Shown: one piece after another, positions 49,431-50,783 of the stretch | Layout: each line of letters starts with the position of its first letter | Numbering within the stretch: position 1 is the stretch's first letter | Assembly (NCBI GenBank): GCA_036517295.1 | Contig: DATDWZ010000016.1 | Location: 1-50,783, forward strand | Length of the DNA: 50,783 nucleotides | Source of the DNA: Minisyncoccota bacterium | Lineage (GTDB): Bacteria > Patescibacteriota > Minisyncoccia > Phycocordibacterales > DATDWN01 | Reading direction: 5' to 3' | Notes under the pieces: model-generated | What the model was told of the DNA's origin: nothing | Databases searched by the model: none | Seen by the model: the letters and a program-made list of their open reading frames with translations, nothing else | Position numbers and translations under genes: made by a program

Positions 49431-50531
49431 TCAGCTTTTTTTCATACTCTTTGATATGTTCAAAATCATTCCGACTTCAACCAGGGTGACAAACAAAGCC
49501 GTCCCGCCATGACTGACAAATGGCAAGGTTATGCCTGATAAAGGCAAAACGCCCACCATGGCTCCTATATTCACAAAAGCTTGGGATACGATAAGTATAA
49601 CAATTCCAACGACAACAAGTCTACCGAATGTATCAGACACTTTTCCGGCAATTTTCAACCCCCGGAAAGAAAAAAATATGAATAGCAGTATTATGCCGAC
49701 TGCACCGACAAAACCGAATTCCTCACTAGCTACCGCAAAAATAGAGTCCCCTATCGGTTCAGGTAAGACATTGAACTTTTGTATGCTCTGACCGAATCCT
49801 CGGCCAAACATACCGCCCGATCCGACGGCGATGAGCGACTGTTGTATCTGATAACCGCTACCTAGGGCATTTTCCGAGGGATTGATGAATGTGTCGATAC
49901 GGCTCATGACATAAGGCTTGGTATATACCACGCCGACCAAACCTATGGCGCCAATAGCTATCGTGATTATTATATACCGCCAACCGCCACCACCTGCCAA
50001 AAATATTGCCAATCCGGAAAAAACTATAATTATAAATGTATCGGTATCGGGCTGATTCAAGAGTATCGTCCCGACTACACCGAGGATTATAATAAACGGC
50101 AAAAAACCGTATTTGAAAGTTGAGGCCTTGTTTTTCACTCTAGCCAACCATGCGGAGAAAAATATTATAAATCCTATTTTTAAAAATTCTGATGGTTGAA
50201 AAGAGAGGAACCCTAAACTAATCCAGCGTGACGCTCCGCCGTGGGAAAAACCAACCCTGGGGACAAAAACCAAGAGAGTGACAAGTATGGATACGATGAA
50301 CACGATAAGTGAGTATTTTCTGTATATTTTATAATCGGTACGCGAGGCAATTACACAAAAAATCAAACCACAAAAAAGTCCGAAAAAGGTCTGGTTGAAA
50401 GTCACCCCACTATACTTAACCACTTGTTTTGAAAGCAGTCCGAAAGAAGCCGAAGTGAAAATAGCGTAACCGACAATTATCAATATAGTCGTAGTTACAA
50501 GAAAAGGTATGTCGACTTTTATTTTTTTCAT
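49431..50531 (-). CDS. ftsW: SEDS peptidoglycan glycosyltransferase FtsW
   Basis: GASRWI..FQPSEFLK, QPD, GYQIQQS, DSIFAVASEEFG, TLPFVSHGG; upstream of murG. Confidence 0.92.
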   Translation of the reverse strand: MKKIKVDIPFLVTTTILIIVGYAIFTSASFGLLSKQVVKYSGVTFNQTFFGLFCGLIFCVIASRTDYKIYRKYSLIVFIVSILVTLLVFVPRVGFSHGGASRWISLGFLSFQPSEFLKIGFIIFFSAWLARVKNKASTFKYGFLPFIIILGVVGTILLNQPDTDTFIIIVFSGLAIFLAGGGGWRYIIITIAIGAIGLVGVVYTKPYVMSRIDTFINPSENALGSGYQIQQSLIAVGSGGMFGRGFGQSIQKFNVLPEPIGDSIFAVASEEFGFVGAVGIILLFIFFSFRGLKIAGKVSDTFGRLVVVGIVILIVSQAFVNIGAMVGVLPLSGITLPFVSHGGTALFVTLVEVGMILNISKSMKKS

Positions 50532-50782
50532 CCCGTTAGAGTTAGGAAACCCCTCAAGCGATTGTTGAGGTAGTGTTTACCCATACTGGATTTAAGAAAC
50601 GACTCTCTTGATCTAGCATCAGACTCGTTTTTGCACGCTTCGTAATAAATAACCTCCCATGGTTTGAACTTGTTTGTATATATTGATTTACCATCATTAT
50701 GTAGCTTGAGACGTTTCCGTAGGTCATTTGTACTTCCAGTGTACCATATGCCATTTTTCTTGCTTTGTAATACATATGTGTA
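50528..50782 (-). CDS. Small GIY-YIG nuclease, 5'-truncated by window, inside family A copy 6
   Basis: Hand translation YTYVLQSKKNGIWYTGSTNDLRKRLKLHNDGKSIYTNKFKPWEVIYYEACKNESDARSRESFLKSSMGKHYLNNRLRGFLTLTG*. Confidence 0.88.
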   Translation of the reverse strand, partial: YTYVLQSKKNGIWYTGSTNDLRKRLKLHNDGKSIYTNKFKPWEVIYYEACKNESDARSRESFLKSSMGKHYLNNRLRGFLTLTG

Positions 50783-50783
50783 G
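50529..50783 (-). mobile_element. Family A copy 6 (nuclease-carrying, before ftsW); left end outside window
   Basis: Right end TTTCCTAACTCTAACGGG-ATG matches copies 1-5. Confidence 0.75.

What the first reader, a model, noticed from the sequence alone, without database searches (positions are those of the whole stretch)
50528..50783. Hidden GIY-YIG nuclease is the cargo of the sixth copy and its 3' end is the element's right repeat
Seen: the ORF track shows the wrong frame here; another minus frame is open to the window edge and reads YTYVL..WYTGST..R...H...E, the GIY-YIG signature (established). Its last codons TTC CTA ACT CTA ACG GGA TGA (FLTLTG*) are the right inverted repeat, and the TGA overlaps the ftsW ATG. 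Copies 1, 2, 3 and 5 still read FLSLTG* in that frame. Inference: this is the autonomous form, the short copies are deletion derivatives, and a stand-alone GIY-YIG enzyme rather than a DDE/HUH transposase may mobilise them, with ATGA coupling preserving host translation.
Basis: partly seen in the sequence, partly recalled or inferred. Interest (0 to 1): 0.9.

Follow-up and report, generated by a model that had tools for sequence, protein, structure and literature searches.

The report
Gene-sized mobile element at start codons
A 285-base mobile DNA element that encodes only a tiny GIY-YIG nuclease sits exactly on the ftsW start codon, and about 45 shorter copies sit on other start codons of this small genome; this looks like a kind of transposon that has not been described.

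Summary
The minus strand at 50528-50782 carries a GIY-YIG domain (Pfam E 1e-16). It ends FLTLTG* inside the repeat CTCTAACGGGAT, and its TGA overlaps the ftsW ATG.

The contig can be extended: contig C31 overlaps the window end by 109 exact bases. It supplies the predicted left repeat, ATGAATCCCGTTAGAG, in frame, giving a 94-aa ORF.

The genome (740 kb, Patescibacteria) holds 2 full copies and about 46 short copies (44-131 bp). Of 43 orientable copies, 41 abut the ATG of a real host gene. All lie in one orientation, and ATGRA is duplicated on both sides.

None of 29 same-genus genomes has this element at ftsW. Another 21 full copies in other genomes sit before different genes.

An inner inverted repeat inside the gene covaries. 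The commonest short type is the full element minus the ~148 nt between the arms of that repeat.

About half of 92 small GIY-YIG genes examined are bounded by inverted repeats specific to their clade.

- Translational coupling does not hold in the short copies; only 4 of 31 stay open.
- Three genomes rich in short copies have no close nuclease.
- No nuclease activity or transposition has been shown.

I found no published description. Best reading, about 0.55: an autonomous GIY-YIG transposon that borrows the host's start codon.

The parts
50528..50783 (-). 3' 84 codons plus the stop of the GIY-YIG ORF. The full ORF is 94 aa; its first 10 codons and the left repeat lie on contig C31.
50530..50543 (.). 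Right terminal inverted repeat (ATCCCGTTAGAGTT on the + strand). It encodes ..LTLTG, and its outer AT belongs to the ftsW ATG.
50527..50531 (-). Right copy of the duplicated target ATGAA. ATG is the ftsW start and TGA is the nuclease stop.
50545..50559 (-). 3' arm of the inner inverted repeat IR2 (GCTTGAGGGGTTTCC on the coding strand; codons RLRGFL).
50704..50718 (-). 5' arm of IR2 (GGAAACGTCTCAAGC on the coding strand; codons RKRLK of the conserved Arg motif).
49431..50531 (-). Host gene ftsW, whose start codon is the insertion site.
49289..49426 (-). Short copy (type a, 127 bp between the CCCG and CGGG ends) exactly at the murG ATG. One of the 4 short copies whose left-ATG frame runs to the TAA in the right repeat.
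40939..41045 (+). Short copy (type b, 97 bp) at the dnaJ ATG, with ATGG duplicated.
32622..32762 (+). Short copy (type a, 130 bp) at the rplQ (L17) ATG.
29759..29896 (+). Short copy (type a, 127 bp) at the rpmJ (L36) ATG.
28021..28136 (+). Short copy (type d, 105 bp) at the ATG of a 444-aa ORF with no Pfam family.

Best explanation
The thing at the window's end is a 285-bp autonomous mobile element whose only gene is a 94-aa stand-alone GIY-YIG nuclease.

**Anatomy (shown)**
- 14-bp terminal inverted repeats, ATCCCGTTAGAG(A/T)T, lie inside the first and last codons of the ORF (MNPVR.. and ..FL[ST]LTG).
- A second, inner inverted repeat (IR2) pairs the codons of the catalytic Arg motif (LRKRLK) with the codons just before the right repeat.
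- The element lies between two copies of the target ATGRA.
- The left copy is the host gene's original start codon and now starts the nuclease ORF. It sits behind the host's own promoter and leader; half of the sites look leaderless.
- The right copy supplies the nuclease's TGA stop and rebuilds the host's ATG as ATGA.

**Mechanism (inferred)**
- The nuclease recognises the terminal ~11 bases and the target A|TGRA.
- It makes staggered cuts 4-5 nt apart, always in one orientation.
- Host repair or ligation completes the insertion.
- Non-coding derivatives of 44-131 bp that keep the termini are moved in trans, as MITEs are.

**Host expression**
- In the full element, the host gene is probably translated by termination-reinitiation at ATGA.
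- How host genes behind short copies are expressed is not explained.
For: **Element structure.** The left repeat was found by joining C31 to the window (109-nt exact overlap). A second intact copy lies in C22 before a GT2 gene.

**Copies in this genome**
- There are 46 repeat pairs plus 2 more with a 1-nt indel in the right repeat.
- 43 of the 46 could be oriented. In 41 of those 43 the right end abuts an ATG that opens a host ORF of at least 71 aa, or L36.
- All 22 type-a copies lie in the same orientation relative to the host gene.

**Target duplication**
- ATGRA is repeated exactly on both sides in 26 of 43 copies. Four bases are repeated in 2 and six in 1.
- The fourth base covaries between the two sides (ATGGA with ATGGA; ATGCAA with ATGCAA).
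- Host starts are ATGRA in 38 of 43 copies, against 211 of 565 crude gene starts. The genome has 3962 ATGRA sites in all.

**Empty sites.** None of 29 same-genus genomes has this element at the ftsW start. By my reading of the printed flanks, in 15 of them mraY's stop lies 2 to about 110 nt upstream of the ftsW ATG.

**Other genomes**
- 21 further full copies from other Patescibacteria have the same repeats. 18 of these 21 abut ATG.
- They precede different genes: MacB/FtsX, TsaE, MurG, a histidine kinase, LigA, SHMT, an aaRS, RmlC, transaldolase, a Mur ligase and others. The Pfam matches begin at profile positions 1-6.

**Structure in the nucleic acid.** On 22 elements, both helices are 93.7% paired against 29-46% when the partner is slid. 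12 pairs changed on both sides, against 0-4 when slid. No shuffle of 500 reached the observed values.

**Short copies derive from the gene.**

**The nuclease is kept intact**
- Y14, Y25-T-G27, R33, H39 and E59 are invariant in 23 sequences.
- Copies that lack the inner ATG keep the left ATG, and the reverse also holds.
- 1839 database clusters match at E<=1e-10. Of the best 120, 83 are exactly 95 aa, 89 start M-x-PV.. and 108 end ..TG.

**Generality**
- 47 of 92 small GIY-YIG loci have flanking inverted repeats scoring at least 11, against 0 of 460 shuffles.
- Repeat families follow the protein clades: 15 changes on the tree against 47 when labels are shuffled.

**No other transposase is tied to these repeats in this genome**.
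Against: - No activity was tested. A hydrolytic GIY-YIG nuclease cannot carry out strand transfer by itself, so ligation or repair has to be assumed.
- G005 (94% complete), G021 (77%) and G045 (98%) hold 20, 20 and 17 repeat-ATG junctions. Their best matches to this nuclease are only 39.5, 52.8 and 64 bits, the last with a stop codon.
- The agreement between repeat family and protein clade is what physical linkage alone would give. It does not show recognition.
- In 4 DNA metagenome runs laid as contigs, none of the 15 listed joints removes an element precisely. A further 76 joints were not shown. Present-day movement is therefore not shown.
- The left-ATG frame is closed early in 27 of 31 short copies. 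Coupling therefore cannot be the general way that host genes stay expressed.
- The duplication length is not fully fixed. It ranges from 4 to 8 bases when L008 is counted.
- The crude gene set takes the first ATG of each long ORF, so the 37% background figure is rough.
Confidence: 0.55

Rival explanations
1. The elements are real mobile DNA, but the nuclease only makes the break. It works like a homing enzyme with a very short target: it cuts ATGRA at gene starts, and a resident copy is then copied in by repair synthesis primed from the ATGRA microhomology on both sides. The duplication reflects the microhomology used, not a staggered cut.
For: - Every copy is flanked by the same short word, so each resident copy offers matching microhomology.
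- The duplicated length varies: 4, 5, 6 and 8 bases.
- Tandem arrays share one ATGAA between two elements: C31, L005, L010, and the second-family arrays in L030 and L043.
- GIY-YIG enzymes are known as homing nucleases. That is my own knowledge, and it is also stated in passages of PMC1564403.
Against: - Copies with ATGCAA or ATGAGTAA on both sides cannot have taken the left junction from a donor flanked by ATGAA unless the priming end reached into the element.
- Strict single orientation and a mostly fixed 5-base duplication (26 of 43) look more like a defined staggered cut.
Confidence: 0.2
2. The repeats are moved by some other transposase that is unassembled, lost or unrecognised. The GIY-YIG ORF is then cargo, or a helper that favours retention, as TnpB does for IS200/IS605.
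For: - Three genomes are rich in short copies but have no close nuclease.
- Many short subfamilies share only the ~11 terminal bases.
- Y1_Tnp genes are present in 8 of 9 repeat-rich genomes against 15 of 35 repeat-free ones.
- MAG assemblies often lose repeated genes.
Against: - In this genome the four Y1-like ORFs are each flanked by their own, different palindromes, and none lies next to a CCCGTTAGAG repeat.
- HUH single-strand transposition leaves no target duplication (recalled), whereas these elements have one.
- The one rve ORF has no such repeat on its contig. PF01609 was not found.
- In more than 20 genomes the repeats bound the nuclease ORF exactly, with nothing else inside.
- Six or more nuclease clades each carry their own repeat.
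Confidence: 0.2
3. It is not mobile DNA but an inherited structured leader: an RNA module at gene starts that regulates translation, with the nuclease ORF sharing sequence with it by coincidence.
For: - As single strands the short copies fold well below shuffled controls (z -4.1 to -6.5).
- They always sit at gene starts, in the sense orientation.
- No Rfam family matched, so a new RNA is not excluded by name.
Against: - Orthologous sites are empty in 29 of 29 relatives.
- The target is duplicated on both sides.
- Distribution among 61 related genomes is patchy, with 35 having none.
- Depth over the elements is 2-10 times that of the flanks, and many contigs with unlike flanks end at their borders.
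Confidence: 0.03

Closest known systems
Free-standing GIY-YIG homing endonuclease genes of T4-like phages (Seg proteins) and I-TevI (recalled; background in PMC1564403, passages read)
   Same: A GIY-YIG nuclease gene that is itself the selfish unit, wedged between host genes and using their expression signals.
   Different: - Those enzymes carry a C-terminal DNA-binding domain and home to one cognate site. They have no terminal inverted repeats, no target duplication and no non-coding derivative copies.
- Here the protein is the bare 94-aa domain. TIGR01453 scores 19.7 bits against a cut-off of 56.
- The sites are many and unrelated.
Insertion sequences and their MITEs (for example Correia or RUP elements; recalled)
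   Same: Terminal inverted repeats, short target duplication, dozens of dispersed short copies, and full-length and deleted forms sharing the same ends.
   Different: - No DDE, serine, tyrosine or HUH transposase is present. At 285 bp the element is far smaller than any IS I know of.
- Its ORF has no start or stop codon of its own beyond what the duplicated target provides.
- Insertion is orientation-specific and lands on start codons.
IS200/IS605 with PATEs, and REPIN-RAYT systems (recalled)
   Same: Very small elements with strongly folding ends, orientation-specific insertion next to a 4-5-base word, and hairpin-forming non-coding derivatives.
   Different: - Those use a Y1 HUH transposase, have no terminal inverted repeats and leave no target duplication.
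- The Y1-like genes of this genome carry other palindromes.
UPF0213 / YhbQ-type stand-alone GIY-YIG proteins (PDB 1zg2, 1ywl)
   Same: The same bare domain of about 90-100 aa. These are the nearest solved relatives by sequence (E 9.9e-6 and 0.018).
   Different: As far as I recall these are ordinary chromosomal genes with no reported flanking repeats. The C-terminal tail ..RLKRFLSLTG of the present family is dictated by the element's repeats.
GIY-YIG endonuclease of Penelope-like retroelements (abstract of PMC8557442 seen in the listing)
   Same: A GIY-YIG nuclease that serves the integration of a mobile element.
   Different: Those are eukaryotic retroelements in which the nuclease is fused to a reverse transcriptase. 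No reverse transcriptase is present here.

Membership tests
GIY-YIG nuclease superfamily (Pfam PF01541) | Sequence match to the domain model above the curated cut-off | tested here: met
   E 1e-16, 61.4 bits against a cut-off of 22.6; residues 1-69 match profile positions 3-74 of 78.
GIY-YIG nuclease superfamily (Pfam PF01541) | Conserved catalytic residues: Tyr of GIY, Tyr-x-Gly of YIG, Arg, His and Glu (motif names recalled) | tested here: met
   Y14, Y25-T26-G27, R33, H39 and E59 are invariant, and Y12 nearly so, in 23 aligned sequences.
GIY-YIG nuclease superfamily (Pfam PF01541) | Three-stranded sheet/helix fold and nuclease activity | not tested
   No structure was predicted. Complex prediction was lost and then unavailable. 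Activity needs a bench assay.
Homing endonuclease (I-TevI / Seg type) | C-terminal DNA-binding module joined to the catalytic domain | tested here: not met
   The protein is 94-95 aa, domain only. TIGR01453 scores 19.7 bits against a cut-off of 56.
Homing endonuclease (I-TevI / Seg type) | One cognate insertion site shared by homologues | tested here: not met
   The full copies with a Pfam-named host gene precede 16 different genes; 4 more host ORFs have no family or are cut short.
IS / MITE-type DNA transposon | Terminal inverted repeats | tested here: met
   14 bp, 97% complementary over 22 elements.
IS / MITE-type DNA transposon | Target-site duplication | tested here: met
   ATGRA is repeated exactly in 26 of 43 copies; other lengths occur in 3; in the remaining 14 the left copy is mutated. 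Non-ATG cases duplicate TTAA, TTTA and CTGG.
IS / MITE-type DNA transposon | Empty orthologous sites and many dispersed copies | tested here: met
   29 of 29 relatives are empty at ftsW. About 48 copies lie on 26 of the 46 contigs.
IS / MITE-type DNA transposon | Encodes a transposase of a known class (DDE, HUH, Ser, Tyr) | tested here: not met
   The only ORF is GIY-YIG.
IS200/IS605 or REPIN-RAYT | Y1 HUH transposase next to, or bounded by, the repeat; no target duplication | tested here: not met
   The Y1-like ORFs have other palindromes, and a duplication is present.

The most novel reading that the evidence does not exclude
This is a new class of prokaryotic transposon whose whole machinery is a ~95-aa GIY-YIG nuclease.
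- It inserts orientation-specifically into A|TGRA at start codons.
- The target duplication itself creates the nuclease's start codon (the host's old ATG, with the host's promoter and leader) and its stop codon, overlapped with a rebuilt host ATG.
- It has spawned families of 44-131-bp MITEs that occupy the start codons of essential genes across Patescibacteria.
- The many small 'GIY-YIG nuclease family protein' genes of these genomes would then largely be such elements, each clade with its own terminal repeat.
Probability: 0.45. Interest if true: 0.92.

Novelty: categorically new. Interest (0 to 1): 0.86.

Why it matters
- **A new transposase class.** If the nuclease moves these elements, a sixth class (GIY-YIG) joins DDE, HUH, serine, tyrosine and Cas1. 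The element would be about the smallest autonomous one known, at 285 bp.
- **A new way to coexist with a streamlined host.** The element takes over a start codon and hands it back. This would explain how dozens of insertions sit in front of rpmJ, rplQ, dnaJ, murG and ftsW in a 0.74-Mb genome without killing it.
- **Annotation and assembly.** It would explain why thousands of 95-aa 'GIY-YIG nuclease family protein' entries exist. It would explain why Patescibacteria assemblies break at them; this window ends inside one. It also shows that gene callers will misplace starts at such sites.
- **A possible tool.** A minimal nuclease with a short, orientation-specific target and defined DNA ends is of practical interest.
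- **An open question made testable.** How are genes translated behind a 100-130-nt structured insert in an organism that shows no Shine-Dalgarno enrichment?

Tried and rejected
- **Translational coupling through the short copies.** I tested this and rejected it as a general rule. Of 31 short copies that keep a left ATG, 4 stay open to the TAA in the right repeat. The other 27 stop 15-134 nt before the host ATG.
- **A Shine-Dalgarno or -10 box inside the right end.** 0 of 43 copies have an SD-like word and 6 of 43 have a TAnnnT at leaderless spacing. This gives no general answer.
- **Known RNA family.** Rfam at gathering thresholds found only one tRNA in the window.
- **RNA evidence.** No RNA holder was listed for window 27500-33500.
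- **Insertion polymorphism.**
  - Four DNA runs were laid as contigs on 30784-50783.
  - Depth over the elements was higher than over the flanks, and many loose ends lay at the element borders.
  - None of the 15 listed joints removes an element precisely. A further 76 joints and 1379 loose ends were not shown.
  - Contigs cannot show rare variants, so this says nothing either way.
- **Homodimer test.** There is no result.
- **Other transposases in the genome.** PF01609 was not found. The single PF07282 match is below its cut-off. One rve ORF has no family repeat on its contig. Four Y1-like ORFs carry palindromes of their own.
- **The 16S 3' end.** My one pattern did not find it, so the anti-SD sequence was not read.
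- **Literature.**
  - Searches listed no paper on a bacterial GIY-YIG element with terminal repeats or on MITEs in Patescibacteria. I saw only listings and abstract openings.
  - I read passages of PMC1564403 and PMC12455944. Neither mentions inverted repeats; the second lists a GIY-YIG protein among genes transferred from Patescibacteria.
  - The library lacks most subscription journals, and supplements were closed and not consulted. Prior description is therefore not excluded.
- **Rows dropped.**
  - Of the 48 pairs I dropped 2 as spurious (a 29-nt pair in C28 and C40 11148). Three of the remaining 46 could not be oriented (C21, C32 6923, C45).
  - From alignment A1 I left out L051 (the same record as L002), L067 (the same as L009), L009 (poor right end), and L062, L065 and L068 (an end missing or divergent).
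  - In one search my pattern labelled four second-family rows (L012, L013, L096, L098) as 'other_TIR'.
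Full report
**1. The observation**

The window is the whole of contig C16 of a 740-kb, 46-contig genome that is 91.7% complete. A same-genus genome's contig has the same range as a record titled 'MAG: Minisyncoccia bacterium' (L002 and L051). The organism is therefore a member of the Patescibacteria.

On the minus strand, 50528..50782 is open to the contig end and reads YTYVLQSKKNGIWYTGSTNDLRKRLKLHNDGKS..YYEACKNESDARSRE..RLRGFLTLTG*. It is a GIY-YIG catalytic domain (PF01541, E 1e-16). 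The nearest solved relatives are the bare-domain UPF0213 proteins 1zg2 and 1ywl.

The stop TGA overlaps the ATG of ftsW. The last codons lie in the repeat ATCCCGTTAGAG, which recurs at five other places in the window.

**2. Extending the contig**

The last 109 nt of contig C31 are identical to the reverse complement of the window's last 109 nt.

C31 ends with mraY. By my reading of the flanks printed, mraY lies directly upstream of ftsW in 15 of 29 same-genus genomes, so gene order supports the join.

The joined sequence reads: mraY stop, then 26 nt that match the right end of another short subtype, then ATGAA, then TCCCGTTAGAGTTCACACGGTT ATG TAC TAC ACA... The predicted left repeat is therefore present, and the ATG in front of it is in frame. 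The ORF is 94 aa (MNPVRVHTVMYYTYVLQ...FLTLTG*), and the element is 278 bp between its CCCG and CGGG ends.

A second intact copy with 74% identical protein lies in C22, in front of a family-2 glycosyltransferase gene.

**3. The family in this genome**

- Pairing the repeat cores gave 46 elements after 2 spurious pairs were dropped. Two more have a one-base insertion in the right repeat, and there is one solo right end.
- 43 of the 46 could be oriented. In 40 of those 43 the bases after the right CGGG are an ATG that opens an ORF of 71 to more than 500 aa. In one more they open the 38-aa L36 gene. Two are exceptions, with ORFs of 27 and 8 aa.
- In the window the hosts are a 444-aa ORF, rpmJ, rplQ, dnaJ, murG and ftsW.
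- The copies fall into subtypes. Type a has 22 copies of 121-131 bp. Type d has about 8 copies of ~105 bp. Types b, c and e are 96-120 bp and share only the terminal 11-14 bases.
- All members of a subtype lie the same way round relative to the host gene, 22 of 22 for type a.

**4. Target duplication**

If the element is written TCCCG...CGGG, then ATGRA stands on both sides in 26 of 43 copies. Four bases are duplicated in 2 copies and six bases in 1. In the other 14 the left copy is mutated, for example to ACGAA or CTTGT.

The variable fourth base agrees between the two sides: ATGGA with ATGGA in 6 of the 8 ATGGA sites, and ATGCAA with ATGCAA. In other genomes ATGAGTAA, TTAA, TTTA and CTGG are duplicated.

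The host start is ATGRA in 38 of 43 copies. In a crude gene set 211 of 565 starts are ATGRA, and the genome has 3962 ATGRA sites in all. There is thus a sequence preference and, beyond it, a strong preference for true gene starts.

**5. These are insertions**

None of 29 same-genus genomes carries this element at the ftsW start. The ftsW-murG junction is usually a stop, 1-20 nt, and an ATG.

Two relatives carry tandem short elements of a second repeat family (..CTACTACCGGG|ATG) at the ftsW or murG ATG. A more distant genome has a full GIY-YIG element at the murG ATG (L005). The same start codons have therefore been hit independently.

The junction word TCTAACGGGATG occurs 37 times in this genome. 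It occurs 8-20 times in eight others and not at all in 35 of 61 related genomes. The reversed control occurs 0-1 times per genome.

**6. Full copies elsewhere**

I aligned 22 full elements, C22 plus 21 from other Patescibacteria MAGs.

- 19 of the 22 end CGGG|ATG.
- Where a family is found, the downstream proteins are all different, and their Pfam matches begin at profile positions 1-6. The ATG is therefore the real start.
- Three are not at an ATG. In one of them (L058) the element lies in frame inside a pseudopilin gene, at the G|FTLIE processing motif. A single 234-aa open frame holds GIY-YIG, N_methyl and T2SSG.

In the large protein collection 1839 clusters match at E<=1e-10. Of the best 120, 83 are exactly 95 aa, 89 begin M-x-PV.. 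and 108 end ..TG. That is, their termini are the repeats.

**7. A second, inner inverted repeat**

GGAAACGTCTCAAGC (codons RKRLK of the catalytic Arg motif) is complementary to GCTTGAGAGGTTTCC (codons RLRGF), which lies one base before the right repeat.

Across the 22 elements this helix and the terminal one are 93.7% paired, against 29-46% when the partner is slid by 1-3 columns. Twelve pairs changed on both sides, against 0-4 when slid. No shuffle of 500 reached the observed values. Examples are CGTCTT/AAGACG, CGCTTT/AAAGCG and GGAAGCG/CGCTTCC. Something other than the protein constrains these codons.

Type-a short copies keep the two arms as a tight hairpin. They align with the first ~110 and last ~32 nt of the full element with a single ~148-nt gap between the arms, at 59-69% identity over 131-142 columns. 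They are internal-deletion derivatives.

As single strands the five short copies in the window fold with z -4.1 to -6.5. The terminal stem closes, leaving AUGA free on the 5' side.

**8. The nuclease is maintained**

Y14, Y25-T-G27, R33, K34, R35, H39, E59 and E71 are invariant in 23 sequences.

Copies without the inner ATG (L006, L008, L060, L061, L063) all keep the left ATG. Copies whose left ATG is mutated all keep the inner one.

**9. Generality**

Of 92 small GIY-YIG loci from related and other genomes, 47 have inverted repeats flanking the ORF with a score of at least 11. None of 460 shuffles reaches that score. The units span 273-320 bp.

The repeats differ between clades: CCCGTTAGAG, CCCGGTAGTGAAATTTTAG, TCCGCACACTAAC, CCCCACACC, GCCCCTCAC, CGTGAGATAA and others. 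They follow the protein tree, with 15 label changes against 47 when labels are shuffled. Linkage alone would give this agreement. What it does show is that ORF and repeats travel as one unit.

Other clades have no repeats and lie beside tRNA genes, with part of the tRNA duplicated (L015, L016, L069).

**10. How it probably works**

- **Shown:** the anatomy, the duplication, the orientation, the empty sites, the derivation of type a, and the conservation of the catalytic residues.
- **Inferred:** the nuclease recognises the ~11 terminal bases and A|TGRA and makes cuts 4-5 nt apart. Host ligation or repair finishes the job. Short copies are moved in trans.

The neatest consequence follows directly from the sequence. 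The element has no start or stop codon at its ends. The left copy of the duplicated target is the host's old ATG, behind the host's promoter and leader, and it starts the nuclease ORF. The right copy gives TGA and rebuilds the host ATG as ATGA.

In this genome SD-like words are not enriched before crude gene starts (10% against 15% at random). A TAnnnT box 4-9 nt upstream is enriched (35% against 10.5%) and is present at 23 of 43 insertion sites. Many targets may therefore be leaderless genes, and the nuclease would be translated from a 5'-terminal AUG.

**11. What does not fit**

- Coupling cannot explain the short copies, since only 4 of 31 stay open.
- The right end offers no SD and only rarely a -10 box.
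- How L36, L17, DnaJ and MurG are made behind these inserts is unexplained. Possible answers are unmasking of the right AUG when ribosomes occupy the left arm, cleavage at the stem, or an internal promoter. None could be tested because no RNA run was listed.
- G005, G021 and G045 are rich in short copies of many subtypes but have no close nuclease. They may hold orphan MITEs or assembly gaps. In this genome one of the two full copies sits on a contig break. Alternatively, another enzyme moves the short copies.
- Y1_Tnp genes are somewhat commoner in repeat-rich genomes: 8 of 9 against 15 of 35. But here each is flanked by its own palindromes, and HUH transposition leaves no duplication (recalled).
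- Contig-level laying of four metagenomes gave no precise-excision joint among those listed.

**12. Comparison and novelty**

The element works like an IS with its MITEs, but its only protein is a bare GIY-YIG domain. It resembles free-standing GIY-YIG homing genes in being a selfish nuclease gene wedged between host genes. It fails two of their defining features, a DNA-binding module and a single cognate site.

It resembles IS200/IS605 and REPINs in size, folding and orientation-specific insertion. It differs in having terminal inverted repeats and a duplication and in lacking an HUH enzyme.

Seven text searches and two papers read in passages gave no description of such an element. The library is incomplete, so this is not proof.

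**13. Verdict**

That this is mobile DNA I put at about 0.9. That type a is a deletion derivative I put at about 0.8. That the nuclease is the mobilising enzyme I put at about 0.55. ATGA coupling as the general rescue of host translation is not supported for short copies.
- Interest is high.

Noticed in passing
L058:1429-2130 (MAG labelled Omnitrophota): A full element is inserted in frame inside a pseudopilin gene, exactly at the G|FTLIE methylation/processing motif. TTTA is duplicated, so one 234-aa frame reads leader, GIY-YIG..SLTG|FTLIE, pseudopilin (Pfam GIY-YIG, N_methyl, T2SSG). The processing site is rebuilt after the insert.
   Followed up: partly
window 7414-7488 and 39434-39509; also C38 152-230 and C40 35380-35465: ~70-nt palindromic elements, TTGA-ACCCGGTAGTGAATTTTGGCAT...ATGCCAAAATTCACTACCGGGT-TGA. 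Their arms resemble the terminal repeat of a second GIY-YIG clade (L011-L013, L095, L096, L098). No nuclease of that clade was found in this genome.
   Followed up: partly
G000 C40:48540-48625 (contig end): Another GIY-YIG ORF (MFYVYVLRSSKDNQFYTGFSSDLRR..) starts just after sequence that reads like the 5' part of 23S rRNA (by eye). This looks like an rRNA insertion of the kind reported for CPR bacteria; I saw only the abstract of PMC11270868 in the listing.
   Followed up: no
G000 C33:2133-2327: A GIY-YIG ORF of a different clade lies between two sequences that read like tRNA genes (by eye), with no flanking inverted repeat. In other genomes (L015, L016, L069) such ORFs are flanked by a duplicated piece of the neighbouring tRNA gene.
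   Followed up: partly
G000 C4:12631-13347, C5:15645-16346, C18:1347-2048, C35:560-1264: Four 233-238-aa ORFs give weak Y1_Tnp (HUH) matches. C4, C18 and C35 are flanked on both sides, and C5 at least upstream, by their own perfect palindromes (CCCTAGGGGTACCCTAGGG or CCCAAAGGTTACACCTTTGGG). These look like REP/RAYT-type units.
   Followed up: partly
window 42123-42789 (also 6039-6172 and 2918-2985): An AT-rich repeat (AATTTTCAATTTTCAGTTCTCAATTTT.., families D1 and D3) has a summed contig depth of about 1500 against about 20 for its neighbours in two metagenome runs. This stretch is very widely shared in the community.
   Followed up: no
whole genome G000: SD-like words are not enriched upstream of crude gene starts (10% against 15% at random positions). 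TAnnnT 4-9 nt upstream is enriched (35% against 10.5%), which suggests many leaderless genes. The gene set is crude.
   Followed up: partly
runs X3, X4 and X6, between window 32640 and 32744 and between 49307 and 49408 (table 5c): Contigs carry the same terminal repeats around a 39-nt GC-rich interior. In G005 (L137) a 44-bp copy exists. Much smaller members of the family are therefore present in the community.
   Followed up: no
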